Below are positions 49,703 to 61,436 of a stretch of DNA of 64,000 bases, piece by piece. The DNA comes from a virus (taxonomy: Duplodnaviria; Caudoviricetes), in the IMG/VR virus record IMGVR_UViG_3300022591_000005, positions 598-64,597 of that record; one strand, written 5' to 3'. A program made the translations under genes and the position numbers. The notes under the pieces were generated by a model that was not told the DNA's origin, ran no database searches, and saw only the letters and a list, made by a program, of their open reading frames with translations. Position 1 is the stretch's first letter. Every line of letters starts with the position of its first letter.

Positions 49703-49767
49703 AAGGATGAGTTCTGCAAATTTCAAAGCTAAACTTTTTGGTTGTCTAGCGACAAAAATCATCCTGT
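49703..49767 (+). ncRNA. CAGCAA-module RNA E1
   Basis: aggatga..ctgcaa...tcatcctg. Confidence 0.6.
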
Positions 49768-49938: not shown

Positions 49939-49943
49939 AGTTT

Positions 49944-50000
49944 TAGGATTCATTCAGCAATTAAAAATTTTATATTGAAAATAAAAAAAGCGAATCCTGT
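49944..50000 (+). ncRNA. CAGCAA-module RNA E2 (Ser-UGA-like anticodon hairpin)
   Basis: taggattc..cagcaa..ttttat-attgaaa-ataaaa..gaatcctg. Confidence 0.7.
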
Positions 50001-50008
50001 TTTAATAT

Positions 50009-50083
50009 ATCGCGTTGGACTTCTGGGTAGGTCCTTGGCCCTTCAAGCCAAAGAGACGGGTTCGATTCCCGTACGCGATACCA
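50009..50083 (+). tRNA. tRNA-Glu(TTC), C33 variant
   Basis: Loop CCTTCAA, CCA. Confidence 0.8.
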
Positions 50084-50089
50084 ATCTAT

Positions 50090-50165
50090 GGTGTTAGTAG
50101 TGTAGTGGTCTGCACCTCGCTCTGTGAAAGCGATAGTATGGGATCGTTCCCCATCTAGCACCCCA
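50090..50165 (+). tRNA. tRNA-His(GTG)
   Basis: G-1, loop CTGTGAA, C73-CCA. Confidence 0.85.
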
Positions 50166-50167
50166 AT

Positions 50168-50243
50168 GCAACTTTAGCTGATGTGGTCATAGCGGCGGTT
50201 TGAAGCACCGTTGAAGTAGGTTCGATTCCTACAGGTTGCACCA
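50168..50243 (+). tRNA. tRNA-Phe(GAA)
   Basis: Loop TTGAAGC, CCA. Confidence 0.82.
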
Positions 50244-50249
50244 AGTTTT

Positions 50250-50324
50250 GCCTCCGTAGTATAATGGATAATATACTGGTCTACGAAGCCGGGGATTGTG
50301 GTTCGATTCCATACGGAGGCGCCA
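50250..50324 (+). tRNA. tRNA-Arg(ACG)
   Basis: Loop CTACGAA, CCA. Confidence 0.88.
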
Positions 50325-50331
50325 AGTTAAT

Positions 50332-50407
50332 GGGGCATGGGCATGGGCACCCGGATTTGCTTTGCAAGCAGATAGCCTGATCGGTTCGAGTCCGATATGT
50401 TCCACCA
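50332..50407 (+). tRNA. tRNA-Ala(TGC), atypical D-arm
   Basis: G3:U70, loop TTTGCAA, CCA. Confidence 0.75.
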
Positions 50408-50412
50408 ATTAT

Positions 50413-50486
50413 GTATCCCTAGTGTAATGGCAGCATTACAGTCTCCAAAACTGTCGGTCGGGGTTCGAGTCCCTGGGGGTACGCCA
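50413..50486 (+). tRNA. tRNA-Trp(CCA)
   Basis: Loop CTCCAAA, CCA. Confidence 0.88.
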
Positions 50487-50491
50487 ACAAT

Positions 50492-50580
50492 GGAAGGTTA
50501 ACTGGACTGGGTCCAGCTCTGTCTTGAAAACAGAAGGTGTGCGAAAGCGCATAGAGTTCGATTCTACTATCCTTCCTCCA
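50492..50580 (+). tRNA. tRNA-Ser(TGA)
   Basis: Loop CTTGAAA, long variable arm, CCA. Confidence 0.8.
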
Positions 50581-50585
50581 TATTA

Positions 50586-50661
50586 TAGGCTTGACATGAA
50601 ATGTTTTTCATATCGTTATGACATGACGACTTAGGCAGTTAGATTCTGCACTAGCCCACCA
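50586..50661 (+). pseudogene. Degenerate tRNA-like element (GAC loop)
   Basis: Cloverleaf-like, tcgtt-atgacat-gacga, ends ACCA, non-canonical loops. Confidence 0.4.
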
Positions 50662-50666
50662 ATTAT

Positions 50667-50744
50667 CTCTGTGTAATGTCAATCTGGTAGACGGCCTGAT
50701 CTGGAGTCAGGAGGCTGTAGGTTCGAATCCTACCATGGAGACCA
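50667..50744 (+). tRNA. tRNA-Pro(TGG), C33 variant
   Basis: Loop TCTGGAG, CCA. Confidence 0.8.
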
Positions 50745-50749
50745 AATTT

Positions 50750-50848
50750 GCCGCTATAGCTTAATGGTAAAGACGAGAGCTTATACCTCTCCAAAGCAGT
50801 GGCCAGATAAGCCACCGTGTGCAGGTTCGAGTCCTGCTAGCGGCACCA
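50750..50848 (+). tRNA. tRNA-Ile(TAT) with large extra arm
   Basis: gagag-CTTATAC-ctctc; ~29-nt variable region; CCA. Confidence 0.7.
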
Positions 50849-50852
50849 AGTT

Positions 50853-50910
50853 TAGGATGCGTCCAGCAACTTACAAAATTCAACTTTTAATTGAAAAATA
50901 AGCATCCTGT
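50853..50910 (+). ncRNA. CAGCAA-module RNA E3 (Lys-UUU anticodon hairpin)
   Basis: taggatgc..cagcaa..ttcaa-CTTTTAA-ttgaa..gcatcctg. Confidence 0.75.
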
Positions 50911-51021
50911 TTTTAAAATGTTCAAAAGGAGAACGACAATGAAACGTGCTAAACGTTAGTGTCGCTCTAGATCCCGTATTGGTCTAGGGTTGGCACATTA
51001 AATCAAATTTAATACAACTAA

Positions 51022-51097
51022 CCCTATCTAGCGTTAACGGTAGCGCACTTGACTCTTAATCAATGAGGTGTCGGTTCGAATCCGACGGTAGGGACCA
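51022..51097 (+). tRNA. tRNA-Lys(CTT)
   Basis: Loop CTCTTAA, CCA. Confidence 0.88.
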
Positions 51098-51101
51098 ATA
51101 C

Positions 51102-51179
51102 GGGATCGTAGTGTCAACGGTTTAGCACAGCGGACTTTTAATCCGCCAGGTGAGGGTTCGAATCCCTCCGGTCCTACCA
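51102..51179 (+). tRNA. tRNA-Lys(TTT)
   Basis: Loop CTTTTAA, CCA. Confidence 0.9.
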
Positions 51180-51686
51180 TTAAATGTAATTGAAATTAAT
51201 TACTGCTCTATATGCGTTGTCGGTACATGAAGTGCCAGTATGCAAGTCTGTTGTATCAAAAATAGCAAGTCTGTTTTCAACACTGTTAATTCGTTCACCG
51301 TCTTTAAACAAGGTGTATCCATTATTAGTGTTAAGATAAAATACAGCAGTTTTACATACTTGTTCTAATTTGCCTGGCAAGTCAGTATGAAACCCATGTT
51401 CAACGATTTCATTTGTGCATGGAACAATATTTGCTTTAATCTTTATTATTGCCTCCGGCTGCAGGATGTGCAATATAGGAGAAAGCAAATCTAAATACTG
51501 ACTTTCTACAAATGGACTCATGTAAAAAGAATGAACAAATTGATTATTATATTTTGGATCGCATGATAATTTTTCAGATGCAACAATGTCATGCATCATC
51601 CAAGGAAAATTAGGTCCAAGGATAGTATTTTTAATCATATCTAAGTCTTCTTGTTGAAGACAGTTGTCTGTTATTGTAAGTTTCAT
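51180..51686 (-). CDS. 2OG-Fe(II) oxygenase-like protein
   Basis: HTD..TAVFYLNTNNGYT..H..R.VINFNY. Confidence 0.8.
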   Translation of the reverse strand: MKLTITDNCLQQEDLDMIKNTILGPNFPWMMHDIVASEKLSCDPKYNNQFVHSFYMSPFVESQYLDLLSPILHILQPEAIIKIKANIVPCTNEIVEHGFHTDLPGKLEQVCKTAVFYLNTNNGYTLFKDGERINSVENRLAIFDTTDLHTGTSCTDNAYRAVINFNYI

Positions 51687-51713
51687 AGTACAGTATATAT
51701 CGTAAAAAATTAT

Positions 51714-51788
51714 GGTAACGTAGCATAATGGTTGTGCACCTCCTTCATACGGAGCCAGGTGTGAGTTCGAATCTCACCGTTACCACCA
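51714..51788 (+). tRNA. tRNA with CAT anticodon (Met or Ile2)
   Basis: Loop TTCATAC, CCA. Confidence 0.82.
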
Positions 51789-51794
51789 AGTTAT

Positions 51795-51886
51795 GGCGGA
51801 TACTTTCCACATGGTTGTGGAGAGCATTCAGATCGGAATGTTTACAGCAAACTTTTTAACAGGTTCGACTCCTGTATCCGCCGCCT
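51795..51886 (+). ncRNA. tRNA-like RNA E4 with CAGCAA module replacing the anticodon arm
   Basis: ggcggat/atccgcc acceptor, T-arm, gcattc/gaatgt-ttacagcaa. Confidence 0.6.
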
Positions 51887-51894
51887 AACAAATT

Positions 51895-51968
51895 GCTCTA
51901 TTAGTATAATGGCAATACTCCGGTTTTGTAGTCCGGCAATCGTGGTTCGATTCCTCGATGGAGCACCA
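51895..51968 (+). tRNA. tRNA-Thr(TGT)
   Basis: Loop TTTGTAG, CCA. Confidence 0.8.
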
Positions 51969-52079
51969 AGAGCCTCACCCTTGCATATGGTGTATAATAG
52001 GATAAGTTGTATGCAGCAAACAGACCCCCGCTTTTCTAGATTGTGCGGTGAACAATCTAGAACAAATAAGTAAGTTTAT

Positions 52080-52153
52080 GCGGGTATGATGTAATGGTAA
52101 CCTGAAACCTTGCCAAGGTTTATTCGCGAGTTCGATTCTCGCTACCCGCTCCA
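52080..52153 (+). tRNA. tRNA-Gly(GCC)
   Basis: Loop TTGCCAA, U73-CCA. Confidence 0.9.
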
Positions 52154-52203
52154 TACATCCTTCCAGAGTTGTTCGTATAGCGTCCCCTGGAAGTTCTCAG
52201 TTT

Positions 52204-52310
52204 TAGGATCAGTTCAGCAATCTTAAATCCAAGCAGAATGTCGTGGGTTCGAATCCCACCTTAATTGTAGCTCAGTTGGTAGAGCGTCCGCCATAAAAAG
52301 ATGATCCTGT
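52204..52310 (+). ncRNA. CAGCAA-module RNA E5 enclosing a circularly permuted tRNA-Val-like domain (YrlA-like)
   Basis: T-arm precedes D-arm; closed by taggatc/gatcctg. Confidence 0.78.
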
Positions 52311-52323
52311 TAGTTTGACCATT

Positions 52324-52443
52324 TAGGTTCTTTTCAGCAAATTTAAATAATCTTTCTGCAAAAAAGAGAGGCTGGGTTCGAATCCCAGGCACAGCTTGGT
52401 CAGTTGTGTTAGTGTAGTGGTAGCACGAAAAAAGAGAACCTGT
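52324..52443 (+). ncRNA. CAGCAA-module RNA E6 enclosing a circularly permuted tRNA (GCA anticodon)
   Basis: Order: anticodon arm, T-arm, capped acceptor stem, D-arm; closed by taggttc/gaacctg. Confidence 0.8.
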
Positions 52444-52461
52444 TATAATAAGGAGACTACT

Positions 52462-52629
52462 GTGAAAGCAATTACATTTAAAAACAGATTTAATGGCGAA
52501 AAGGTAGTGTGCAAGGATGTTAAAGAAGTCCAAGTAATTGACGGTGTCGAGTACTTGCTTGTTAGCAAAACTGTACAAGATAGAAAATTCCTAATGCGTA
52601 AAGATGCATTAGAAAAAGTCAAAGGATAA
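52462..52629 (+). CDS. Hypothetical protein
   Basis: AAGGAG SD + GTG. Confidence 0.6.
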   Translation: MKAITFKNRFNGEKVVCKDVKEVQVIDGVEYLLVSKTVQDRKFLMRKDALEKVKG

Positions 52630-52633
52630 AATC

Positions 52634-53125
52634 ATGCAATGGATTCAAAACGTAGCAATGGTGGATGTAGCAAAAGGGCACCACTTTGATGCTGGTGTGA
52701 ATTCTATGCTTATCCAAATTGTAGACCCAGGAATGGAATTTCCTATTCCATTTAATAAGTTTGCAGAAGTGCATCAATTTCAATTCTTAGATTTGGAAAA
52801 AGATGACAAGGCTCCAGAAGAGTTAAAAATTCAGGACGAACAAGCAGAGCAACTTGTGGCTCTATTACAACATGCACTTGACAAACATATGCAAGTTGTA
52901 GTACACTGTGTTGCTGGAGTTTGTAGAAGTGGTGCAGTTTGTGAAGTTGGAGTAATGATGGGATTTAACGACACTGAAGTGTTTCGCAGCCCAAATTTAC
53001 TAGTCAAACACAAGATGATGAAAGTCTTAGGTTGGACATACGATGAAAACGAACCACACACTATAAACGGTATAACATTAGACTCGGGATTTATTGTCCC
53101 AAAGAATTACGAAGGTGATATATGA
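52634..53125 (+). CDS. Cys-dependent (tyrosine/dual-specificity-type) phosphatase
   Basis: HCVAGVCRS (CX5R). Confidence 0.85.
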   Translation: MQWIQNVAMVDVAKGHHFDAGVNSMLIQIVDPGMEFPIPFNKFAEVHQFQFLDLEKDDKAPEELKIQDEQAEQLVALLQHALDKHMQVVVHCVAGVCRSGAVCEVGVMMGFNDTEVFRSPNLLVKHKMMKVLGWTYDENEPHTINGITLDSGFIVPKNYEGDI

Positions 53126-53490
53126 GTATGTACAATATGCTGTTTGGTGTAAATCCTGACACTGATCAATTGATGGAAATCTTAGGAAAGACCCAAGGTG
53201 ATTTTGGTCGTTTCCGCAATGTCTATATGGAAGATGGTTACATTATTGTGCATACACGTAATGGTGGTGGCAACCGTGAAGACTATGAAGACGTATTCGA
53301 TGAAATGTCAGAGCACCCTTGGTATAGCCACGATGAAGATGATAGTTTTGACTGCACATACGCTAACATATACTTCAAGGTTCCCGAGAATCACGAAGAT
53401 TTTATGGCAATTCGTAACCTCAACGCAGGTAAGAGTCCAAGTAAGCAATGGGGTGAATTGCTTGCTACAATGGAAGCATTGAAAAAGTAA
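53122..53490 (+). CDS. Hypothetical protein
   Basis: HTRNGGGNR motif. Confidence 0.7.
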   Translation: MSMYNMLFGVNPDTDQLMEILGKTQGDFGRFRNVYMEDGYIIVHTRNGGGNREDYEDVFDEMSEHPWYSHDEDDSFDCTYANIYFKVPENHEDFMAIRNLNAGKSPSKQWGELLATMEALKK

Positions 53491-53500
53491 AGGAAAAGAA

Positions 53501-54049
53501 ATGAGAACATGGGTTACAAGTGACTTGCATTTTGGTCACAAGAATATCATGAAGTTCTGCCCTGTGACCCGTGCTCGTTTCCGCGATGACGTAGCATACA
53601 TGAATAACGCAATGGTTGAAGAATGGAACAACAAAGTTGCTCCGGAAGATACTGTTTACATCTTAGGTGATGTAGCGTTTATGTCGGGCAGTGATGCAGG
53701 ACGGATGATGCAACGTTTAAATGGTACAAAGATTTTGGTTGAAGGCAACCATGACCGTAAGACATTGATGGATGCAACATTCCGCAGTGCGTTTGCAGAA
53801 GTACACAAGTACTTGGATATTACATATGATGGTCACAAGATTGTCATGTTTCACTATCCAATTGCTGAATGGGATCAAATGCACAGAGGAGCATTGCACT
53901 TGTACGGTCACTTGCATGGCGGTACAAGCGGATTAGAAAAGTATCGTGCGTTTGATGTAGGAATGGACTCAACAGGTGAAATTTGTGTATCAATGGAATA
54001 CGTAATCAATCGTATTAAGGATAACGAAATTAAAGGACATCACGTATAA
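53501..54049 (+). CDS. Calcineurin-like metallophosphoesterase
   Basis: SDLHFGH, LGD, GNHD, HYP and GHLH motifs. Confidence 0.9.
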   Translation: MRTWVTSDLHFGHKNIMKFCPVTRARFRDDVAYMNNAMVEEWNNKVAPEDTVYILGDVAFMSGSDAGRMMQRLNGTKILVEGNHDRKTLMDATFRSAFAEVHKYLDITYDGHKIVMFHYPIAEWDQMHRGALHLYGHLHGGTSGLEKYRAFDVGMDSTGEICVSMEYVINRIKDNEIKGHHV

Positions 54050-54555
54050 TGGATACAATCGAAAAGGCTAGAGTTTTTGCAACTGCGGCACATGCAGCGG
54101 CGGCTCAACTTCGTAAGTATACGAATGAGCCTTATATTGTCCATCCTGCTGAAGTTGCTAGTATTATTGACAATCTTGAAGGTGCTTCTGTAGCTATGGT
54201 TGCAGCAGCATGGTTACATGATGTAGTCGAAGATACAGGAGTTACAATTGAAATCATCAAATCGGAGTTCGGTGAAGAAGTCGCAGACTTGGTGGGATGG
54301 CTTACCGACGTTAGCCGTCCGGAACAAGGTAACAGAGCAACACGCAAAGCAATTGACAGAGCGCACACTGCAATGGCACCCGCAGAAGCGCAAACAATCA
54401 AGTTGGCAGATTTAATTTCTAACTGCACAAGTATTGTTGAGCATGACGCAACATTTGCAAAAACATACTTAGAAGAAAAGAGATTACTGCTTGAAGTTTT
54501 AACAAAAGGCGATCGTTCTCTCTGGGAACACGCTAACAAGATTGTGAGCAAATAA
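54049..54555 (+). CDS. HD-domain hydrolase, small alarmone hydrolase/Mesh1-like
   Basis: AH..Q.RK...PYIVHP, LHDVVEDT and IKLAD..SN motifs. Confidence 0.85.
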   Translation: MDTIEKARVFATAAHAAAAQLRKYTNEPYIVHPAEVASIIDNLEGASVAMVAAAWLHDVVEDTGVTIEIIKSEFGEEVADLVGWLTDVSRPEQGNRATRKAIDRAHTAMAPAEAQTIKLADLISNCTSIVEHDATFAKTYLEEKRLLLEVLTKGDRSLWEHANKIVSK

Positions 54556-55460
54556 TGTTTAAAGACAAGTTGAAGGAGTACGTAGAGACTAGCGGCTTGG
54601 TTAACATGAAAGAAGCTGGCGACGGCATCTACGTACTCAAGTACAAGAAAAAAGTGTTCTACGATAACTTGTGGAACGAATACATTGCTGAATGCCGTGG
54701 ATCTGTTGTAGATAAGGATTTCAACCTAGTTGCATACCCATTTACAAAGATCTACAACTATGGAATTGAAAAGGAAGCACCTGTCCTATCTGATGATACT
54801 AAGGTAACTGCTTTTCGTAAAGTAAACGGTTTCATGGTAGCTTGTACTTGGTACAACGATGACGTTTTAGTGTCTACTACAGGTAGTACTGACAGCCCAT
54901 ACGTTGATATGGCCAAGGAAATGATGATGGAACACATGTGCTGGGCAGACTGGCAAATGGCATTGTGCAACACTGAGACCCAAGGCATGACATTTATGTT
55001 TGAGTGTGTGCATCCAAGTGATCCACATATCATCCCTGAAGAAGAAGGTATGTACCTCCTAGGATATCGTGAAAACGAATTTGGCAGCAATGTGGGTCAC
55101 GACCCATTCGTGTTGCAAGACTTAGGTCGCATGTTTAATTGTTTCGTGCCAGAAAGTGTAACAACTAACATGGCTCGACTAAAGCAATTAGCTAAGGAAT
55201 GCAAGCACGAAGGTTATGTATTCTATACAGATGATGGTGTAAGTGCTAAGATCAAGTCGCCATACTACTTAACTTCAAAGTGGGTTGCTCGCAATCCACG
55301 TACAGATAAGTTAGTAGACTTGAACAAGGACATTAAGCACAACATTGACGAAGAGTATTACGGATTGATTGATCATATCCGTGCTAACATTGTTGAGTAT
55401 ACTGCTATGGACGAGCAAGCTCGTTTATCGTGGGTGCGTAACTATATGGAGGCGGCCTAA
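54555..55460 (+). CDS. RNA ligase (T4 Rnl1-like)
   Basis: ECRG, PFTKIYN, KVNG (motif I), FE, EGYV and KIKS motifs. Confidence 0.82.
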   Translation: MFKDKLKEYVETSGLVNMKEAGDGIYVLKYKKKVFYDNLWNEYIAECRGSVVDKDFNLVAYPFTKIYNYGIEKEAPVLSDDTKVTAFRKVNGFMVACTWYNDDVLVSTTGSTDSPYVDMAKEMMMEHMCWADWQMALCNTETQGMTFMFECVHPSDPHIIPEEEGMYLLGYRENEFGSNVGHDPFVLQDLGRMFNCFVPESVTTNMARLKQLAKECKHEGYVFYTDDGVSAKIKSPYYLTSKWVARNPRTDKLVDLNKDIKHNIDEEYYGLIDHIRANIVEYTAMDEQARLSWVRNYMEAA

Positions 55461-55467
55461 GGATGAA

Positions 55468-55677
55468 ATGTTTGACAGCTATCAAACATCGACTCCTGAA
55501 AAGGTAACATATAACTGGGAACAGGTATTTGCCTGGCTCCCAGTTGCTGTTCATGGCAAACGTAAATGGTTTACTAAAGTGTGGCGTAGGAAAGTTGCTG
55601 TCTATGGTGATGAAAGAAACATGCCGCTGCGATACCAGTACGGTAATATATTTGATGTAATCAAGGACGAAGAATGA
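55468..55677 (+). CDS. Hypothetical protein
   Basis: FAWLPV motif. Confidence 0.55.
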   Translation: MFDSYQTSTPEKVTYNWEQVFAWLPVAVHGKRKWFTKVWRRKVAVYGDERNMPLRYQYGNIFDVIKDEE

Positions 55678-55886
55678 ATGATGAAAGTCACTTGCCTGTA
55701 GCAGAACAAAGCCTACTGTTCCGTTTACGCAAAAGAGCAGAAATACGTAGGTCTATTCCAGGTAGGCTAGCAGTTGTAGAAGGGAAACCAGATAAGATTG
55801 CTAACTTGTTAGATGAAGCAGCAGACGAAATTGAACATTTACAAGAAACTGTAGCAGCACTTGTTGCTCAGAGGCTTGGGGGATAG
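55674..55886 (+). CDS. Hypothetical protein
   Basis: RLRKRAEIRR..LLDEAADEIE. Confidence 0.65.
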   Translation: MNDESHLPVAEQSLLFRLRKRAEIRRSIPGRLAVVEGKPDKIANLLDEAADEIEHLQETVAALVAQRLGG

Positions 55887-55888
55887 TT

Positions 55889-56476
55889 ATGTTAGTAGAA
55901 CCGTTATTTCCAGTACCGATTTATGTATGTCAAGTAGCAGATAAACTTAACATTCAAAAAGAGTGTTTAGACTCAGTAAATAAGTTTGGAGCAAGTTTCT
56001 TTTCTAAGTCACCTGTTGTCGATCCTATTAGTCATAGTTTGTCTGATCCTACGTTTACATCTAATTTGATTGCAGACATTGGGCTTGTACACATCGAAAA
56101 AGAAATTCATCAGCAAGTAACCAATTATTTGTTGCAGCTCGGACATAGATCTATTCAAAGTTTTAAAATTGTTGCTAGTTGGATGACTCATACAGCACCA
56201 AAAGAGTATACTCCTGTACACGATCATGCATCAGCAGATCTATCAGGTGTGTATTATATAAAAACTAATGGGCAAGATGGTGAAATATTTTTCATGGATC
56301 CAAATCCAGCAATGAATGCAACTTATTGTTTTTCTACTCTGCCTAAAAGATATGCACATGCACCCGAAGAAGGAAAAATGGTTATTTTTCCCGGTTGGTT
56401 ATTGCATGGTGTAAATTCAAATCAAACCGATGATGTACGCATTAGTATATCATTCAATATTTTGTTTGATAGATAA
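55889..56476 (+). CDS. 2OG-Fe(II) oxygenase-like protein (TIGR02466-type)
   Basis: HDH..SGVYY, FPGWLLH and RISISFN motifs. Confidence 0.82.
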   Translation: MLVEPLFPVPIYVCQVADKLNIQKECLDSVNKFGASFFSKSPVVDPISHSLSDPTFTSNLIADIGLVHIEKEIHQQVTNYLLQLGHRSIQSFKIVASWMTHTAPKEYTPVHDHASADLSGVYYIKTNGQDGEIFFMDPNPAMNATYCFSTLPKRYAHAPEEGKMVIFPGWLLHGVNSNQTDDVRISISFNILFDR

Positions 56477-56479
56477 TTT

Positions 56480-56557
56480 GCCCCTCTGGACAAATTGGTA
56501 AAGTCGTCTCTCTCAAAAGGAGAAGTTCTCACAGTTCGAATCTGTGGAGGGGTACCA
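56480..56557 (+). tRNA. tRNA-Leu(CAA), short variable arm
   Basis: Loop CTCAAAA, CCA. Confidence 0.8.
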
Positions 56558-56566
56558 AAGTTTAAT

Positions 56567-56682
56567 GCCGCTGTCGTCTAATGGTAGGACACTTAAAAAG
56601 GTGACTCTGTTTAGAGTACGTTCAGCATAAATTTTTCCATGTCAAGGAAGAGACGGGGGTTCGAATCCCTCCGGCGGCGCCA
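56567..56682 (+). tRNA. tRNA-Asp(GTC)-like gene with ~40-nt CAGCA-module insert (E7)
   Basis: gccgctg/cggcggc-GCCA; ttcc-ATGTCAA-ggaa; insert between D-arm and anticodon arm. Confidence 0.72.
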
Positions 56683-56689
56683 AGTTAAT

Positions 56690-56811
56690 GTGTGAATGCT
56701 GAAACGGTAGACAGCTGGACGGCAGTTCGGGTAAAGGGTTCGAGTCCCTTGGAAGTCCGCAAGACTTTTAGTATGGTACTATTGGAGGTTCGAATCCTTC
56801 TTCACACACCA
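56690..56811 (+). ncRNA. tRNA-like RNA with two T-arms and no clear anticodon arm
   Basis: gtgtgaa/ttcacac-ACCA; two GGTTCGA loops. Confidence 0.6.
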
Positions 56812-56814
56812 GTT

Positions 56815-56925
56815 TAGGATAGTTACTGCAAACACTTTTCTCGCTCCACAACTCGCGAGGGTGGCCCGCTGGGGGTTAAAGTTCCAATTAAGGGTTCGAG
56901 TCCCGCCCTGGAACACCTATCCTGT
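56815..56925 (+). ncRNA. CAGCAA-module RNA E8
   Basis: taggatag..ctgcaa...T-loop hairpin...ctatcctg. Confidence 0.65.
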
Positions 56926-56928
56926 TTT

Positions 56929-57002
56929 GCTCCTATAGTTAAATGGAAGAACACTACTTTGGTAAAGTAGAAATACAAGTTCGATTCTTGTTAGGAGCAC
57001 CA
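56929..57002 (+). tRNA. tRNA-Thr(GGT)
   Basis: Loop TTGGTAA, CCA. Confidence 0.85.
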
Positions 57003-57006
57003 ATTT

Positions 57007-57081
57007 GCGGCGGTAGTCTAATGGAAAGGCAACGCTCTTCTAAAGCGTCCTATGTAGGTTCGAGTCCTATTCGCCGCACCA
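57007..57081 (+). tRNA. tRNA-Arg(TCT)
   Basis: Loop CTTCTAA, CCA. Confidence 0.85.
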
Positions 57082-57086
57082 ATAAT

Positions 57087-57161
57087 GGGCCATTAGCTCA
57101 ATGGAAGAGTTCCGGTCTTCGAAACCGGTTGTTGCAGGTTCGAGTCCTGTGTGGCCCACCA
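57087..57161 (+). tRNA. tRNA-Arg(TCG)
   Basis: Loop CTTCGAA, CCA. Confidence 0.85.
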
Positions 57162-57191
57162 AAAATATTTTAAAAATATTTCAAAAAGATG

Positions 57192-57220
57192 TTGACATAC
57201 AGCACTTTAGACTATATAAT
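57192..57220 (+). promoter_or_regulatory. Sigma70 promoter for the second tRNA block
   Basis: TTGACA-17-TATAAT. Confidence 0.8.
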
Positions 57221-57280
57221 AGATACTTAGACAGTTAGGAAAGACTAACAAACGTTCATTAAAAATCTAAGAGATAATAT

Positions 57281-57356
57281 GCTGGGTTCGTCTAGAGGCC
57301 TAGGACATCGCCCTTTCACGGCGAGAACACGGATTCGAATTCCGTACCCAGTACCA
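57281..57356 (+). tRNA. tRNA-Glu(TTC)
   Basis: Loop CTTTCAC, CCA. Confidence 0.9.
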
Positions 57357-57474
57357 TTATTGAAACGCACAAATGCGTAGGCCACGCAGATGTTGCGGAA
57401 ACAGCTTTGCCCTGTATAGAGCAAGGTTCGCAGGTTCAACTCCTGTAAGTGTATTTCAATAATGGTAAAGTTTC

Positions 57475-57551
57475 GCCCAGGTGATGGAATTGGTATACGT
57501 GTTGGTCTTAGAAGCCAAATTTTGTGGGTTCGAGTCCCACCCTGGGCACCA
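57475..57551 (+). tRNA. tRNA-Leu(TAG), short variable arm
   Basis: Loop CTTAGAA, CCA. Confidence 0.85.
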
Positions 57552-57555
57552 AATT

Positions 57556-57639
57556 GGAGTAGAAGCATCAATGGTGATGCAGTGGACTGTAAATCCGCCG
57601 CCTTTGGCACGCCTGGTTCGATCCCAGGATACTCCACCA
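57556..57639 (+). tRNA. tRNA-Tyr(GTA)
   Basis: Loop CTGTAAA, CCA. Confidence 0.85.
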
Positions 57640-57644
57640 AATTA

Positions 57645-57735
57645 TGGAAATGTGGCAGAGTCCGGTTTATTGCAGCAGTCTTGAAAACTGCCGAGTAGAA
57701 ATGCTCCGTGAGTTCAAATCTCACCGTTTCCGCCA
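57645..57735 (+). tRNA. tRNA-Ser(TGA)
   Basis: Loop CTTGAAA, long variable arm, CCA. Confidence 0.9.
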
Positions 57736-57966
57736 AATTAGGAAATAGTAAATCTCACCGTTTCCGACAATTATGCAGTTTGTGTATGGAGTAATATTCC
57801 TGTATGCGAATAAAAACAGCAATGTTCTGCGCCAATTTATGCTTGCTGAAGTTTAACTACACTGGAGCACATCGAGTAACCTTGAAGTCGACTATATGGG
57901 TAAAAGTTGCCAGGAAGATCCGGAGTTAAACAGTTTGGTTCGAATCCAACAGCGAGCTCCTTTTAT

Positions 57967-58042
57967 GCGGCATTAGCTCAATCGGGAGAGCACAGCACTG
58001 TCACTGCTGAGGTAAGGGGATCGAAACCCCTATGTCGCGCCA
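57967..58042 (+). tRNA. tRNA-Asp(GTC)
   Basis: Loop CTGTCAC, CCA. Confidence 0.88.
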
Positions 58043-58047
58043 ATCAT

Positions 58048-58117
58048 GCCCTGGACTGTGTTGCGAGTCGGATTTGAAGCCGAACGTAGACAGGTTCGAT
58101 TCCTGTTAGGGGCGCCA
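58048..58117 (+). pseudogene. Short, D-arm-deficient tRNA-like element
   Basis: T-arm acagg-TTCGATT-cctgt and GCCA end; reduced D-arm. Confidence 0.45.
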
Positions 58118-58168
58118 AATTAATGTAATCATTGTTGTGATGAGAGAAAAAAGAGAGTATAATTAACA

Positions 58169-58372
58169 ATGTATAAAGTAAACGATAAAATAAATGAAAC
58201 AGAATTTCCTAGCTTAGACTTAGCTATGGAATTTGCAAAAGGTTTAAACCGTTACGTTACTATAACAGGTGGTGGAATGGAGATTGTTGGTATCTTTGGT
58301 GCTGACAGTATTAAGGACGGTAAGTGCCCAGACGGTGTAGACTACACTTGGATGAAGCGCCGTAATCAATAA
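58169..58372 (+). CDS. Hypothetical phage protein
   Basis: EIVGIFGAD..G.CPDG..Y.W.KRR; TATAAT just upstream. Confidence 0.7.
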   Translation: MYKVNDKINETEFPSLDLAMEFAKGLNRYVTITGGGMEIVGIFGADSIKDGKCPDGVDYTWMKRRNQ

Positions 58373-58438
58373 TGCGACTGTGGTGAAATAGGTAGACACA
58401 AAAATGTCTTATTTGTTTGTGTTTAGTATAAATACAAT

Positions 58439-58879
58439 ATGAAAGAAATTACCGATTTTATCAAACTTCCTAGAGAAGACCGCAGGGCGCATTTGAACTT
58501 AGAAGAGCTATGTTGTGAGCGTGGAGGTAACTCCACTAATCATAAAGGTGTGTTAGCACAGTATTTGGATACAACTATTCCTAGCGGACGCATACTATTG
58601 TGCCATGCTTGTAATAATAGTAAGTGCAGTAACCCTAAACATTTGTATTGGGGCACTGACTACGATAATATTATTATAGACGGAACTAATTTTCAAACTC
58701 ATAAAAGTCCTTGGGACAGAAGGGTTGAAAAATACGGTTACGAAAAAGCATCTGCTATGAATAGCAGAGTAAGCAATACTAATGGTGCTGGCAACAAAGG
58801 TAAACCTAAGACAGAAGAACACAAAAGAAAGATTGCGGAAGCTATTAAAAGAAAGTATAATAGCAATGTAGAGAAATAA
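58439..58879 (+). CDS. HNH (His-Me finger) homing endonuclease with NUMOD3-like tail
   Basis: LCHACNNSKCSNPKHLYWGT..DN; TEEHKRKIAEA; TATAAATA late promoter. Confidence 0.85.
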   Translation: MKEITDFIKLPREDRRAHLNLEELCCERGGNSTNHKGVLAQYLDTTIPSGRILLCHACNNSKCSNPKHLYWGTDYDNIIIDGTNFQTHKSPWDRRVEKYGYEKASAMNSRVSNTNGAGNKGKPKTEEHKRKIAEAIKRKYNSNVEK

Positions 58880-58880
58880 T

Positions 58881-58965
58881 GCTCCGATGATGAAATAGGT
58901 AAACATAGCAGACTTAAAATCTGCCGCTTAACGGCTTCCCGGTTCGATTCCGGGTCGGAGCACCA
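58881..58965 (+). tRNA. tRNA-Leu(TAA)
   Basis: Loop CTTAAAA, long variable arm, CCA. Confidence 0.9.
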
Positions 58966-59021
58966 AGTATTTTGCGAACAGTTCGATTCTGGTCAGTCGC
59001 ACCAATTTAAGGAGAAGCTGT

Positions 59022-59165
59022 ATGTCAAGTAAAGAAACGTTAGACAAGGCATACGGCAATATGCCTAAAGAAGTTGGATATACTACAGAAATGTTTGAAT
59101 GGATGCCAACATTTCGTGGTATCAAGTACTACTGGTATAAACTAGTACGTAAGGTAACAAGATAA
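59022..59165 (+). CDS. Small hypothetical protein (not in ORF track)
   Basis: AAGGAG SD; MSSKETLDKAYG... Confidence 0.55.
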   Translation: MSSKETLDKAYGNMPKEVGYTTEMFEWMPTFRGIKYYWYKLVRKVTR

Positions 59166-59170
59166 TATTC

Positions 59171-59264
59171 GGAGAGTTGGGTGAGCGGCTGAAACCACCT
59201 TCCTGCTAAGAAGACATACGGGCCAAAACCTGTATCGAGGGTTCGAATCCCTCACTCTCCGCCA
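59171..59264 (+). tRNA. tRNA-Ser(GCT)
   Basis: Loop CTGCTAA, long variable arm, CCA. Confidence 0.9.
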
Positions 59265-59284
59265 AGATAACAAAAAGGAAAAAC

Positions 59285-59479
59285 ATGGCTAAAACTAACG
59301 CAAACTTTAAATTGAGCAAGACAGCAAAACGCATGGTAGCTTTAATGGGAGGTCCTGCAGAAGGTCGTAATCAATTTAAGCGTATGATGATTGATGCAGA
59401 ATACGCTGCTAGTATTGTTCCAAAGTCCACTAAGAAAGAACGTGGAAATAATTTTGCTGCACCAGCAGCAACTGAATAA
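59285..59479 (+). CDS. Hypothetical protein
   Basis: AAGGA SD; FKLSK..KRM motif. Confidence 0.65.
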   Translation: MAKTNANFKLSKTAKRMVALMGGPAEGRNQFKRMMIDAEYAASIVPKSTKKERGNNFAAPAATE

Positions 59480-59492
59480 GTAAGTATACTGT

Positions 59493-59569
59493 TCCCTGAT
59501 AGCTCAGTTGGTAGAAGCACTTGACTGTTAATCAAGGTGTCGCTGGTTCGAGCCCAGCTCGGGGAGCCA
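59493..59569 (+). tRNA. tRNA-Asn(GTT)
   Basis: Loop CTGTTAA, CCA. Confidence 0.9.
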
Positions 59570-59579
59570 AAGTTTACGT

Positions 59580-59655
59580 GGGGGTATAGCTCATCTGGTA
59601 GAGCAGGTGCTTTGCAAGCATCAGGTGGCGGGTTCGAGTCCTGTTGCCTCCACCA
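59580..59655 (+). tRNA. tRNA-Ala(TGC)
   Basis: G3:U70, loop TTTGCAA, CCA. Confidence 0.9.
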
Positions 59656-59671
59656 ATAGTTAGGAGAAATT

Positions 59672-59938
59672 ATGGTAGCAAGAAATGATATTACAGGTGA
59701 CACAATTCAAACAAAAGGTGTTACTGATTCTTATCGTAGCAACTATGATAACATTTTTAGGAAAGATAAAATGCAAGTTCGAGTTAAAGAAAACGCAGAA
59801 GAATTTGGCAAGTGCGGATGTGGTCGTAGCCCAACTGGTAAATGTATCGGTTGGCATGGGCTAACTGAAGATCAGTTTAAAGAAGCACAAGAAAAATATT
59901 TTACCAATCAGGAAGACACATCAGGTAATCCTGTGTAA
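59672..59938 (+). CDS. Small protein with CDGSH-like Fe-S motif
   Basis: CGCGRSPTGKCIGWH. Confidence 0.6.
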   Translation: MVARNDITGDTIQTKGVTDSYRSNYDNIFRKDKMQVRVKENAEEFGKCGCGRSPTGKCIGWHGLTEDQFKEAQEKYFTNQEDTSGNPV

Positions 59939-59953
59939 AATAAATAATTCATT

Positions 59954-60029
59954 GCCCGTTTAGCTCATTTGGTAGAGCAACGCACTTGTAATGCGTAGGT
60001 GGTCAGTTCGAATCCGACAACGGGCACCA
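59954..60029 (+). tRNA. tRNA-Thr(TGT)
   Basis: Loop CTTGTAA, CCA. Confidence 0.9.
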
Positions 60030-60034
60030 GGTTT

Positions 60035-60154
60035 TAGGATAGGTTCAGCAAACAACTAGCGGCTAATACCCGCATCGTATGACGGGCAGAGATAACTTCA
60101 CAGCCTATCAAAATGTTTTTGCTGTTTCATTAAAAAATGGCAGAAACTATCCTG
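60035..60154 (+). ncRNA. CAGCAA-module RNA E9
   Basis: taggatag..ttcagcaa...ctatcctg. Confidence 0.68.
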
Positions 60155-60465
60155 CTTATAACACCCGGTTTACACTTTTACGTTATTAAAGTGCGTTATT
60201 GCTAGAGACGAGAGTAGCACGGTGCATTGGATCTACCGCAAGGCTCACAGAGAGCGACTTGAGAAATCACAAAGGCAGGACGCTAACCTGTCTAAATAGA
60301 AAAAGACGTGGACGGGGTAACGACCCAGTCTTGGGCGCATGTGGTGTGTGTGGCAAGACATCTTTATCAAATACATTTAACCTAACCATAGGCTTAGGTA
60401 GTAAGGACGGGGCACCGGGTCATAGAAGAGCCAAAAGCCATAAGTGTGTTTGATAAAGATTTTAT

Positions 60466-60540
60466 GGACGGGTGGCAGAGCGTTTATGCACTGGATTGCA
60501 AACCCGGATTAGGTAGGTTAAACTCCTACCCCGTCCTCCA
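60466..60540 (+). tRNA. tRNA-Cys(GCA), atypical T-loop
   Basis: Loop TTGCAAA, U73-CCA. Confidence 0.78.
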
Positions 60541-60547
60541 AGTTTTT

Positions 60548-60621
60548 GCGGGGTTCGTATAGTGGTAATACCTTAGCCTTCCAAGCTAATGCTGAGAGTT
60601 CGATTCTCTTACCCCGCTCCA
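60548..60621 (+). tRNA. tRNA-Gly(TCC)
   Basis: Loop CTTCCAA, CCA. Confidence 0.9.
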
Positions 60622-60627
60622 CAGTTT

Positions 60628-60683
60628 TAGGTTCCATTCAGCAAATAAAAATTTTACTCATAGTGAAAAAAAGCGGAACCTGT
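60628..60683 (+). ncRNA. CAGCAA-module RNA E10 (CAU anticodon hairpin)
   Basis: taggttcc..cagcaa..tttta-CTCATAG-tgaaa..ggaacctg. Confidence 0.75.
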
Positions 60684-60691
60684 CGTATTTT

Positions 60692-60768
<77 letters not shown>

Positions 60769-61224: not shown

Positions 61225-61436
61225 TAGGATGATTACAGCAACTTCAACTATACTATGAACTGCCATAATAATCGTCGAAAGACGTTAAAAGGCTAGTGCT
61301 TGTAGAATACAAGATAGTGTCCGTAGAAACGGAATAGTAGTCGGTATTGAATAATCCGAATAGACTGATGGAACTTGAACCGATGTACTGGGGATGGGGA
61401 TTAGTCGATAAACTCCTACCGTTCCGCTCATCCTGT
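61225..61436 (+). ncRNA. Long CAGCAA-module RNA E11 (~210 nt)
   Basis: taggatga..acagcaa...several hairpins...tcatcctg. Confidence 0.7.

What the first reader, a model, noticed from the sequence alone, without database searches (positions are those of the whole stretch)
49944..60683. Minimal ~57-nt RNAs displaying isolated anticodon stem-loops (Lys-UUU, CAU, Ser-UGA)
Seen: E3 carries ttcaa-CTTTTAA-ttgaa, whose loop is identical to the phage tRNA-Lys(TTT) loop. E10 carries tttta-CTCATAG-tgaaa (CAU), and E2 carries ttttat-ATTGAAA-ataaaa (cf. Ser loop CTTGAAA). All have 5-6 bp stems with 7-nt loops and U at position 33, at the same place in the module. Known: tRNA-Lys(UUU) is the target of PrrC and PARIS AriB, and tRNA-fMet(CAU) of enterobacterial VapC. 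Inference: these are decoy substrates or tripwires for host anticodon nucleases.
Basis: partly seen in the sequence, partly recalled or inferred. Interest (0 to 1): 0.88.

Follow-up and report, generated by a model that had tools for sequence, protein, structure and literature searches.

The report
Anticodon-arm mimics on Ro60-partner RNAs
Three ~55-nt RNAs in a phage tRNA cluster each carry a hairpin built like a tRNA anticodon arm on a conserved "handle" that travels with a Ro60-like phage protein, which suggests the phage displays tRNA parts on a protein-bound RNA, perhaps to bait enzymes that attack tRNAs.

Summary
E2, E3 and E10 are the smallest members of a family of at least 11 same-strand RNAs in this window. 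All share a handle: a covarying 7-bp closing stem, then N-YW-CAGCAA, with a 3' CUG(UU). The handle recurs beside the DUF2828 gene (61490-62902), whose model folds like Ro60, and one copy abuts that gene's ribosome-binding site.

In 80 related phage contigs, 39 of 46 unique minimal RNAs from tRNA arrays have a stem of at least 5 bp with a 7-nt loop (shuffles: 9.2). Thirty-two fit Y-U-NNN-R-N (shuffles: 1.0). Twenty-eight carry a loop identical to a real tRNA anticodon loop of these phages (shuffles: 0.2). The stem covaries and the central triplet differs between copies. Larger members place the same hairpin inside a full tRNA-like body. Distant DUF2828 loci (33-70% identity) show the same pattern.

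So the anticodon-arm mimicry is real. That these RNAs are decoys for PrrC, AriB or VapC is untested. The anticodon repertoire is broad, and copies in the gene's leader often lack U33. I found the family in neither Rfam nor the papers searched. This scan has already noted it on about 50 other genomes.

The parts
49945..49999 (+). E2, a minimal handle RNA. Handle stem 49945-49951/49992-49998, motif A-UU-CAGCAA, apical hairpin 49968-49986 with loop AUUGAAA (UGA triplet, A32).
   Evidence: Sequence. CM R1 56.1 bits, E 2e-9. Rfam RF01414 36.5 bits, below its gathering score of 41.5. Lies 7 nt after tRNA-Gln and 10 nt before tRNA-Glu.
50854..50909 (+). E3, a minimal handle RNA. Apical hairpin 50879-50895 with loop CUUUUAA, identical to the tRNA-Lys(UUU) loop.
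   Evidence: Sequence. CM R1 63.1 bits. The loop occurs in 26 real tRNA-Lys(UUU) genes of these contigs. Orthologues carry CUUUUAA or CUUGUAA on covarying stems.
60629..60682 (+). E10, a minimal handle RNA. Apical hairpin 60652-60668 with loop CUCAUAG (CAU triplet, G38).
   Evidence: Sequence. CM R1 55.4 bits. The MFE extends the stem to 7 bp with a CAU triloop. Lies 8 nt after tRNA-Gly and 10 nt before tRNA-Pro.
49704..49766 (+). E1, a handle RNA (CUGCAA variant) whose interior is two small hairpins and is not clearly anticodon-like.
   Evidence: CM R1 42.4 bits.
52205..52309 (+). E5. The handle carries a tRNA elbow (T arm and D arm) in place of an anticodon loop, as in YrlA.
   Evidence: Rfam YrlA 30.9 bits over model positions 24-84 only, gathering score 69.
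52325..52442 (+). E6. The handle carries a whole tRNA-like body: an anticodon arm that in the 5-bp/7-nt register reads CUGCAAA (the Cys GCA loop), a T arm, a capped acceptor and a D arm.
   Evidence: MFE -36.2 kcal/mol, z -3.67, cloverleaf-like; the MFE itself draws this arm as 7 bp with loop GCAAAAA. Relatives.
56567..56682 (+). A tRNA-like gene with the handle inserted in circularly permuted order (3' arm, then 5' arm plus CAGCAU) between the D arm and the anticodon arm.
   Evidence: Sequence. Pattern hit at 56613. A like case, L111:796-904, is called tRNA by Rfam at 42.5 bits.
56816..56924 (+). A handle RNA (CUGCAA variant) with a T-arm-bearing interior.
60036..60154 (+). A handle RNA with a non-tRNA interior that is conserved in relatives.
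61226..61435 (+). E11, a long handle RNA (210 nt) behind a 12-of-12 consensus promoter (61170-61198).
   Evidence: RNA-library contig depth up to 956 in bin 61216-61600 (weak evidence).
61441..61476 (+). E12, a handle with no cargo. Its 3' arm ends just before the AAGGA ribosome-binding site of the Ro60-like gene.
   Evidence: In 64 of 81 sources a handle module ends 0-45 nt before the gene.
61490..62902 (+). DUF2828 + DUF7788 protein (470 aa) with a Ro60/TROVE + vWA fold. It is the presumed binder of the handle.
   Evidence: Pfam. AF2 pLDDT 93.1. The 13 Foldseek matches with E<=0.001 are all Ro60/TROVE chains, E 6e-8 to 1e-5, TMq 0.37-0.63. The DxSxS residues D276, S278 and S280 are invariant.
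52634..55460 (+). RNA end-healing and sealing context: a Cys-phosphatase-like protein (all four Pfam hits at or below their cut-offs), a metallophosphoesterase, an HD_4 protein and a T4 Rnl1-family RNA ligase.
   Evidence: Pfam.

Best explanation
E2, E3 and E10 are the minimal members of a family of small 'handle' RNAs that partner the phage's Ro60-fold protein (DUF2828, 61490-62902) much as Y RNAs partner Ro60.

Shown:
- a constant handle: a 7-bp covarying stem joining the 5' and 3' ends, a single-stranded N-YW-CAGCAA next to the 5' arm, and a 3' G-UU;
- a variable cargo, which in the minimal RNAs is a hairpin built like a tRNA anticodon arm: a 5-bp covarying stem and a 7-nt loop reading C/U32-U33-NNN-A37-A38, with the central triplet differing between copies and lineages;
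- genes that sit in tRNA slots of the tRNA operons, typically 5-9 nt after one tRNA and 5-13 nt before the next;
- co-occurrence of handle and protein across distant lineages, with one copy lying on the protein's own ribosome-binding site.

Inferred: the RNAs are co-transcribed with tRNAs and released by tRNA-processing nucleases. The Ro60-like ring binds the handle, stabilises the RNA and represses its own mRNA through the leader copy. The anticodon arm sticks out as bait or pseudo-substrate for proteins that read anticodon loops. My first guess for those proteins is host anticodon nucleases. The RNAs would soak them up or capture them while the adjacent phosphoesterases and Rnl1-type ligase repair real tRNAs.
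For: Family and strand bias: 273 modules on the + strand and 1 on the - strand; 184 CM hits, all +.

Covariation: the handle is 99.9% paired with 5 of 7 pairs compensatory; the apical helix is 83.8% paired with 5 of 5 compensatory; slid controls give 30-48%.

Anticodon likeness, in 46 unique array minis:
- 39 have a stem of >=5 bp with a 7-nt loop (shuffle mean 9.2, max 17);
- 32 fit YUNNNRN (shuffle mean 0.99, max 5);
- 28 have a loop identical to one of the 93 real anticodon loops of 1128 tRNAs in the same DNA (shuffle mean 0.23, max 3).

Loop positions, in 30 distinct array stem-loops: position 32 is C in 21 and U in 7; position 33 is U in 28; position 37 is A in 23 and G in 3; position 38 is A in 20. 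Background is A .46, C .15, G .08, T .31.

The same hairpin is an anticodon arm inside full tRNA-like cargos: E6 (Cys), L068:3105 (Ile, CTGATAA), L076:1508 (Arg, CTTCTAA), L061:2543 (Ser).

Distant loci at 33-70% protein identity: 41 handle modules on the + strand and 1 on the - strand, mostly just upstream of the gene. Of 26 CM rows with 7-nt loops, 10 have real anticodon loops.

Protein: the 13 fold matches with E<=0.001 are all Ro60/TROVE chains. Leader copies occur in 64 of 81 sources, with the 3' arm abutting the SD.

tRNA slots: 35 of 43 listed contexts lie 5-9 nt after a tRNA. RNA-repair genes lie within the island. Central triplets are not repeated in 26 of 31 loci that hold two or more such RNAs.
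Against: Binding of handle to protein, processing, and any contact with a nuclease are all inferred; nothing was measured.

The hairpins are AU-only and weak. The MFE omits the E3 hairpin altogether.

U33 and A37, and E10's C32 and G38, could pair to give triloops, so a U-turn loop is not proven.

The central triplets are U-rich at all three positions. Once A34 is excluded, 'a real anticodon' therefore adds little beyond the C-U...A-A frame.

Leader copies often have G33 or C33.

A mini's triplet is not linked to neighbouring cognate tRNAs: 7 observed against 6.4 expected, P 0.46.

Real anticodon nucleases often need modified bases and GC-rich stems (recalled); these mimics may lack both.

The RNA evidence is only uneven contig depth in RNA libraries, which cannot prove transcription or ends.
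Confidence: 0.5

Rival explanations
1. Repair or quality-control adaptor rather than decoy. As with Y RNAs, the cargo (anticodon arm, tRNA elbow or whole tRNA body) gates the Ro60-like ring, or tethers it to tRNA-handling enzymes or an exonuclease such as PNPase. The particle would then find, protect, repair or degrade damaged tRNAs.
For: Ro60 fold. Y RNAs tether Ro60 to PNPase and mimic tRNA (PMC4201824, passages read). Phage phiLo Ro60 with Yrl1/2 binds host PNPase (PMC12135203, passages read). An RNA ligase and phosphoesterases lie in the island. Cargos include tRNA elbows and whole bodies, not only anticodon arms.
Against: It is unclear why an isolated anticodon arm with a diversifying triplet would be needed to tether a general exonuclease or ligase. 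No PNPase or RtcB gene was seen among the ORFs scanned (one search covered 9 ORFs only).
Confidence: 0.25
2. Structural cap only. The hairpin merely closes and stabilises the variable region. A 7-nt C-U...A-A loop is a stable, nuclease-resistant fold, and its likeness to anticodon loops has no tRNA-related function.
For: AU-rich composition. Triplets are U-rich at all three positions. Some modules have no hairpin (E12) or other interiors (E1, 60036-60154). Leader copies tolerate G33 or C33.
Against: The frame is conserved while only the centre varies, across 33-88% protein identity. C32 is enriched fourfold over background. The same hairpin is the anticodon arm of complete tRNA-like cargos. 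Letter-for-letter anticodon loops occur in 28 of 46 array minis against 0.23 expected.
Confidence: 0.12
3. Degenerate or 'armless' tRNAs. The minis would be decayed remnants of handle-tagged tRNA genes, or tiny tRNAs lacking D and T arms that still act in translation.
For: They occupy tRNA slots. They have a 7-bp terminal stem like an acceptor stem. Handle-tagged full tRNAs exist at 56567-56682 and L111:796-904.
Against: There is no CCA: G-UU follows the stem in 188 of 272 tallied copies. The CAGCAA strand is conserved, not decaying. The apical stem covaries, which shows purifying selection. In 47 of 63 cases a normal tRNA with the same anticodon is in the same locus. That bacterial translation needs the T arm is recalled.
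Confidence: 0.05
4. A DNA-level element or terminator: a miniature inverted-repeat mobile element (7-bp terminal inverted repeats, GTTTT on both sides) or an intrinsic terminator (stem followed by U-run).
For: GTTTT precedes 74 of the copies tallied and GTT follows 188 of 272. A U-run follows several copies.
Against: The terminal repeats covary instead of keeping one sequence. All copies are on the tRNA strand. Leader copies lack the 5' GTTTT. None of the 15 terminator-like sites in 48800-61600 is a module. tRNAs follow within about 10 nt.
Confidence: 0.03

Closest known systems
Ro60/Rsr with Y RNAs (bacterial and mycobacteriophage YrlA/YrlB, Deinococcus Yrn1, Thermus phage phiLo Yrl1/Yrl2)
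   Same: A ring-shaped TROVE + vWA protein (fold match). [quoted passage not shown] Some partners mimic tRNA (E5, E6). Several different partner RNAs occur per genome (PMC4201824 and PMC12135203, passages read).
   Different: The protein is Pfam DUF2828/DUF7788 with no sequence hit to solved Ro60. The motif is CAGCAA, not GNCGAA/CGAA: 0 of 190 unique modules have GNCGAA in the first 30 nt. Rfam YrlA scores 30.9 against a gathering score of 69, and only on the tRNA-like part. There are 11-12 copies per genome, spread through tRNA operons. The minimal forms carry only an anticodon arm, which the passages I read do not describe; Yrn1's 'anticodon arm' has a 6-nt loop.
Dictyostelium Class I RNAs (Rfam RF01414)
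   Same: About 55-60 nt, with a short covarying stem joining the ends, a conserved motif ending in ACAGCAA next to the 5' arm, an AU-rich variable interior and a 3' CUGU (PMC7919456, passages read). The Rfam model hits E2 at 36.5, E10 at 35.7 and E3 at 24.8 bits.
   Different: All hits are below the gathering score of 41.5. There is no hit at E<=0.01 in 13 further phage loci. The known protein partner is an RRM protein (Rnp1A/CIBP), not a Ro60-like protein. These RNAs are eukaryotic and nuclear-encoded with a DUSE promoter. Anticodon-like loops are not reported in the passages I read.
Phage-encoded tRNAs that neutralise anticodon nucleases (for example T5 tRNA-Lys against PARIS AriB)
   Same: A phage RNA carrying a Lys(UUU)-type anticodon loop in a tRNA cluster, with a role in tRNA-directed defence and counter-defence (PMC11464382; search listing and start of abstract only).
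   Different: Those are complete, functional tRNAs that replace the cleaved host tRNA. Here only the anticodon arm is present, it cannot be charged, and it sits on a protein-binding handle.
Anticodon-arm mimicry in the E. coli thrS mRNA operator (recalled, not checked here)
   Same: A hairpin shaped like an anticodon arm, placed next to a ribosome-binding site and used for autoregulation. Compare the leader copies, which carry CUCAUAA, CUUAUAA and similar loops.
   Different: In thrS the regulator (ThrRS) reads the anticodon mimic itself. Here the constant handle, not the loop, is the element that abuts the SD and co-varies with the protein family.

Membership tests
Y RNA / YrlA (RF02553) | Encoded close to, and on the same strand as, a Ro60 (TROVE + vWA) gene | tested here: met
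   The modules lie 14 nt to 11.8 kb upstream of a Ro60-fold gene, all on its strand. The same holds in 80 related and 80 distant loci.
Y RNA / YrlA (RF02553) | Stem formed by the 5' and 3' ends | tested here: met
   A 7-bp stem, 99.9% paired, with 5 of 7 pairs showing compensatory changes.
Y RNA / YrlA (RF02553) | GNCGAA(N0-1)G / CGAA Ro60-binding motif near the 5' end | tested here: not met
   0 of 190 unique modules have GNCGAA in the first 30 nt; CAGCAA stands there instead.
Y RNA / YrlA (RF02553) | Reaches the Rfam gathering score | tested here: not met
   The best score is 30.9 bits against 69, at 52236-52288 (E5), covering model positions 24-84 only. The minis give no hit.
Y RNA / YrlA (RF02553) | Physically bound by the Ro60 orthologue | not testable with these tools
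   Needs co-immunoprecipitation or EMSA.
Dictyostelium Class I RNA (RF01414) | Reaches the Rfam gathering score (41.5 bits) | tested here: not met
   E2 36.5, E10 35.7, E3 24.8 bits. No hit at E<=0.01 in 13 other loci totalling 66 kb.
Dictyostelium Class I RNA (RF01414) | Short terminal stem, a conserved motif ending in CAGCAA beside the 5' arm, and a 3' CUGU | tested here: met
   Alignment to the model consensus. G-UU follows the stem in 188 of 272 tallied copies. Features as described in PMC7919456.
Dictyostelium Class I RNA (RF01414) | Dictyostelid nuclear gene with a DUSE promoter about 60 nt upstream | tested here: not met
   The window is a virus record with bacterial-type tRNAs, a tmRNA and sigma-70-like promoters.
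tRNA (RF00005) | Cloverleaf with D and T arms and an acceptor end (CCA) | tested here: not met
   Neither ARAGORN nor Rfam calls a tRNA on E2, E3 or E10. There is no T-arm motif, and the 3' end is G-UU.
tRNA anticodon arm (as a mimic) | 5-bp stem and 7-nt loop with Y32, U33 and R37 | tested here: met
   E2, E3 and E10 by inspection. 32 of 46 unique array minis against 0.99 in shuffles. U33 in 28 of 30 distinct array stem-loops.
Ro60 / TROVE protein family (for 61490-62902) | HEAT-repeat ring plus a vWA domain with a MIDAS DxSxS motif | tested here: met
   AF2 pLDDT 93.1, pTM 0.92. Foldseek gives 2i91, 1yvp, 1yvr, 9l5y and 9kop at E 6e-8 to 6e-7 with TMq 0.52-0.63, within 13 Ro60/TROVE matches at E<=0.001 whose TMq runs from 0.37 to 0.63. 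D276, S278 and S280 are invariant in 91 sequences.
Ro60 / TROVE protein family (for 61490-62902) | Sequence-level match to the TROVE domain or to solved Ro60 | tested here: not met
   Pfam gives only DUF2828 and DUF7788. phmmer against PDB sequences finds nothing below E 0.9.

The most novel reading that the evidence does not exclude
The CAGCAA handle and the DUF2828 Ro60-like ring form an ancient, modular 'tRNA-part display' particle. Phages would plug anticodon arms of chosen identity, tRNA elbows or whole tRNAs into one protein-bound handle, so as to bait, capture or redirect the enzymes that cells use against tRNAs. The anticodon triplet would then be a fast-evolving specificity module. 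Dictyostelium Class I RNAs, whose function and origin are open, would be the eukaryotic branch of the same handle family.
Probability: 0.15. Interest if true: 0.92.

Novelty: new variant of a known kind. Interest (0 to 1): 0.78.

Why it matters
Ro60 and Y RNAs are conserved from bacteria to humans, yet what the variable part of a Y RNA does is largely unknown. Here the variable part is legible: it is a tRNA anticodon arm, a tRNA elbow or a whole tRNA, mounted on one handle.

That gives a direct, testable hypothesis, namely that the particle deals with proteins that read tRNAs. It sits in phages that also carry full tRNA sets and tRNA-repair enzymes, which places it in the arms race around tRNA-cleaving defences.

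If the anticodon arms act as baits, they would be a new class of RNA anti-defence factor and a simple, programmable one. The handle also defines an RNA family that I found neither in Rfam nor in the papers I searched, attached to a large protein family (6254 representatives at 50% identity). It may also give a first lead on the unexplained Class I RNAs of social amoebae.

Tried and rejected
Self-cleaving ribozyme, intron or CRISPR-like repeat for the module. This was considered from the sequence alone. No Rfam family of that kind matched at E<=10, so I dropped it.

Terminator reading. None of the 15 terminator-like sites in 48800-61600 coincides with a module.

Loop-to-start-codon pseudoknot for the leader copies. 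The CAUAU loop is complementary to AUAUG in only some loci, so it is not conserved and I rejected it.

Link between a mini's triplet and the neighbouring tRNAs. There is none: 7 observed against 6.4 expected, P 0.46.

Nearest named phage. blastn of 52400-56480 against 50,697 phage records gave one 62-nt match only.

DUF2828 in the literature. Five papers hold the word, and none concerns RNA binding by title or abstract start. Searches for TROVE with RNA repair and phage and for anticodon stem-loop mimics or decoys listed no description of these RNAs.

Whether Dictyostelium has a DUF2828 protein, or whether the DdR-21 pull-down protein DDB_G0281243 is one, could not be tested. Only one preprint names it and calls its function unknown.

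The ESM Atlas gave only DUF2828 clusters, mostly viral.

RNA libraries. Contigs of X13, X16, X17 and X20 cover the island unevenly (bin depths 0 to 1161). One X16 contig spans E3 with 8 differences, and one X20 contig spans 61374-61477. Contigs cannot show ends, strand or true transcription, so I give this no weight for or against.

MFE folding alone does not recover the hairpins of E2 or E3 reliably. The case rests on covariation.

Full report
WHAT IS THERE. The window is 64 kb of a 64.6-kb virus record judged 17% complete, from freshwater or pond samples. Positions 49.5-61.1 kb are a tRNA island; ARAGORN RNA genes in the whole window. The three elements of the finding are at the stated places:
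- E2, 49945-49999, hairpin UUUUAU-AUUGAAA-AUAAAA;
- E3, 50854-50909, hairpin UUCAA-CUUUUAA-UUGAA;
- E10, 60629-60682, hairpin UUUUA-CUCAUAG-UGAAA.
E3's loop equals that of the phage's own tRNA-Lys(UUU).

THE CONSTANT PART. All three share a frame with eight more elements on the same strand. The frame is a 7-bp stem joining the two ends (AGGAUnn...nnAUCCU), one free base, YW-CAGCAA (CUGCAA in two copies), a variable interior, and G-UU after the stem. The pattern gives 10 + strand hits against 0.67 expected on both strands.

The interiors differ:
- small hairpins in E1, E2, E3 and E10;
- a tRNA elbow in E5;
- a whole capped tRNA-like body in E6 (MFE -36.2 kcal/mol, z -3.67);
- other folds at 56816, 60036 and in E11;
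- nothing in E12.
At 56567-56682 the handle sits in permuted order inside a tRNA-like gene.

THE PROTEIN. E11 and E12 lie between a 12-of-12 consensus promoter (61170-61198) and the ORF 61490-62902, and E12's 3' arm ends at the AAGGA ribosome-binding site. The ORF is Pfam DUF2828 + DUF7788 and has no sequence match in the PDB. With 91 aligned relatives, AlphaFold gives pLDDT 93.1 and pTM 0.92. The 13 Foldseek matches with E<=0.001 are all Ro60/TROVE chains, including Xenopus Ro60 with RNA and Thermus phage phiLo Ro60 (E 6e-8 to 1e-5, TMq 0.37-0.63; 0.52-0.63 for the first ten). The vWA DxSxS residues are invariant. The protein therefore has the Ro60 fold. The family is large, with 6254 representatives at E<=0.001.

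RELATIVES. 170 viral contigs encode close relatives, and 80 of them (73-88% identity) were fetched.
- A strict scan finds 273 modules on the gene's strand and 1 on the other (190 unique).
- A covariance model built from 82 minimal modules finds 184 hits at E<=0.01, all on the + strand, in 1.03 Mb searched on both strands.
- On the model's alignment the handle is 99.9% paired, with compensatory changes in 5 of 7 pairs. The apical helix is 83.8% paired with compensatory changes in 5 of 5 pairs. Sliding the partners drops pairing to 30-48%. That alignment is fitted to the model, which favours the structure; the slid controls and the many pair types argue the signal is real.
- In 64 of 81 sources (75 of which have at least 80 nt upstream) a module ends 0-45 nt before the protein's start, with its 3' arm next to the SD. 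This is the usual layout of translational autoregulation and is the best in-sequence link between handle and protein.
- In 80 distant loci (33-70% identity; MAG contigs labelled from many phyla) the handle again appears: 41 on the + strand and 1 on the - strand, mostly within 400 nt upstream of the gene.

IS THE HAIRPIN AN ANTICODON-ARM MIMIC? They are not.
- In 84 unique minimal modules the best hairpin has a 7-nt loop in 33 and a 9-nt loop in 33, against 7.3 and 6.2 in dinucleotide shuffles.
- I split them by place: 46 in tRNA arrays and 38 in the protein's leader. Of the array copies, 39 have a stem of at least 5 bp with a 7-nt loop (shuffles: mean 9.2, max 17). Thirty-two fit Y-U-NNN-R-N (mean 0.99, max 5). 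Twenty-eight have a loop identical to one of 93 real anticodon loops from 1128 tRNAs in the same DNA (mean 0.23, max 3).
- In 30 distinct array stem-loops, position 32 is C in 21 and U in 7, position 33 is U in 28, position 37 is A in 23 and G in 3, and position 38 is A in 20. Background is only 15% C.
- Real loops found include Lys CUUUUAA on six different covarying stems, Thr CUUGUAA on four, Asn CUGUUAA, Ser CUGCUAA, Tyr CUGUAAA, Cys CUGCAAA and Glu UUUUCAU.
- Distant loci add Gly CUUCCAA, Leu CUUAAAA (twice, on different stems), Phe CUGAAAA, Lys CUCUUAA, Glu CUUUCAA and Ser CUUGAAA. That is 10 of the 26 rows with a 7-nt loop, out of 43 rows in all.
- Mid-size modules show the same hairpin, right after the CAGCAA linker, as the anticodon arm of a cloverleaf with a T arm, D arm and capped acceptor. 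Of 37 unique mid-size modules, 23 have a T-arm motif. Their loops include Ile CUGAUAA, Arg CUUCUAA, Cys CUGCAAA and Ser CUUGAAA.
The minis are therefore the tRNA-like members stripped down to handle plus anticodon arm.

AGAINST, OR LIMITING.
- The hairpins are AU-only and weak. The MFE does not draw E3's hairpin, and z-scores are -1.5 to -2.5.
- U33 and A37 could pair. E10's G38 pairs with C32 in the MFE, giving a triloop.
- E2's loop (A32) equals no real loop.
- The central triplets are U-rich at all three positions. The signal therefore lies mainly in the frame, the loop length and the stem, not in which triplet is present.
- Leader copies deviate: U33 in 17, G33 in 6 and C33 in 3 of 27, with a frequent A.C mismatch at the loop-closing pair.
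- Unique sequences share descent, so the shuffle figures overstate independence. The distant loci are the better replicate.

PLACE IN THE OPERON. Array minis sit in tRNA slots. In 35 of 43 listed contexts they start 5-9 nt after a tRNA, and in 26 of 43 the next tRNA starts 5-13 nt later. E3 likewise follows a tRNA that Rfam calls at 50750-50845. They are therefore most likely cut out of tRNA precursors by the tRNA-processing enzymes; this is inferred. Their triplet is not tied to neighbouring tRNAs (7 observed, 6.4 expected). In 47 of 63 cases the locus also has a normal tRNA with that anticodon, so the minis do not stand in for missing tRNAs. Within a locus the triplets seldom repeat (5 of 31 loci). 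CUUUUAA (Lys) is the commonest loop.

MECHANISM.
- Shown: the handle, the covariation, the anticodon-arm design, the tRNA-slot position, the Ro60 fold, the co-occurrence of handle and gene, and the leader copy.
- Inferred from what is known of Ro60 and Y RNAs (PMC4201824 and PMC12135203, passages read): the ring binds the handle, and the cargo faces outward to meet another protein.
- Why tRNA-directed conflict: every readable cargo is a tRNA part, and the island holds an Rnl1-type RNA ligase, a metallophosphoesterase, an HD protein and a weakly matched Cys-phosphatase-like protein. I therefore place the particle in that arms race.
- My first choice is bait or pseudo-substrate for anticodon-loop-reading enzymes, above all host anticodon nucleases. 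Second choice is an adaptor that guides the ring to damaged tRNAs or to tRNA-handling enzymes.

COMPARISON WITH WHAT IS KNOWN. The system works like Ro60 with Y RNAs but fails two defining tests for YrlA. The GNCGAA motif is absent (0 of 190 unique modules), and the Rfam score is far below threshold.

It resembles Dictyostelium Class I RNAs to a surprising degree: stem...ACAGCAA motif, AU-rich interior and 3' CUGU (PMC7919456, passages read). The Rfam model hits three window elements at 24.8-36.5 bits. All three are below the gathering score of 41.5, and 13 other loci give no hit at E<=0.01. That is a resemblance, not membership.

No paper in the searches describes this RNA family. A jumbo-phage review notes only that some phages have a 'ROT/TROVE' protein with a tRNA-like partner (PMC7824862, passages read).

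This scan has noted the same family before on other DNA: 55 notes in at least 50 genomes, plus sister notes on this window. I reached my reading before seeing them, and they agree with it.

VERDICT. I file it as a new variant of the Ro60/Y-RNA kind, of high interest.

Noticed in passing
L111:1007-1068: An Rfam freshwater-1 RNA (RF02979; 82.7 bits, gathering score 72) lies between two handle RNAs and the DUF2828 gene of a distant locus. The function of that motif is unknown to me.
   Followed up: no
window 60160-60460: The stretch after the handle RNA at 60036-60154 has no Rfam match. It has the highest RNA-library contig depth of the island in one run (bin 60004-60407 reaches 1161). It may be an unannotated structured RNA.
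   Followed up: no
window 39478-39877 and 40122-40195: A phage tmRNA scores as both beta-proteobacterial tmRNA (134.9 bits) and permuted tmRNA (135.7 bits). It is followed by a tRNA with a CUA anticodon, that is, an amber-reading tRNA.
   Followed up: no
window 56567-56682; L111:796-904: Full tRNA-like genes carry the handle as an extra arm in permuted order (3' arm, then 5' arm plus CAGCAA) between the D arm and the anticodon arm. Rfam still calls the L111 copy a tRNA (42.5 bits). These may be handle-tagged tRNAs that can still be charged.
   Followed up: partly
window 50492-50576, 50750-50845, 51795-51882, 57556-57636: Rfam calls tRNA or tRNA-Sec-like genes here that ARAGORN missed. Some carry long inserts; 50750-50845, for example, is 96 nt.
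   Followed up: no
window 48826-48854, 57192-57220, 61170-61198: Three near-perfect sigma-70-type promoters on the + strand (11, 12 and 12 of 12) appear to head the tRNA island, its second half, and the E11-E12-DUF2828 unit.
   Followed up: no
window 58374-59004: An ORF at 58439-58879, with no Pfam hit at E<=0.01, sits between pieces that look like halves of a tRNA and lies next to an intact tRNA-Leu(UAA).
   Followed up: no
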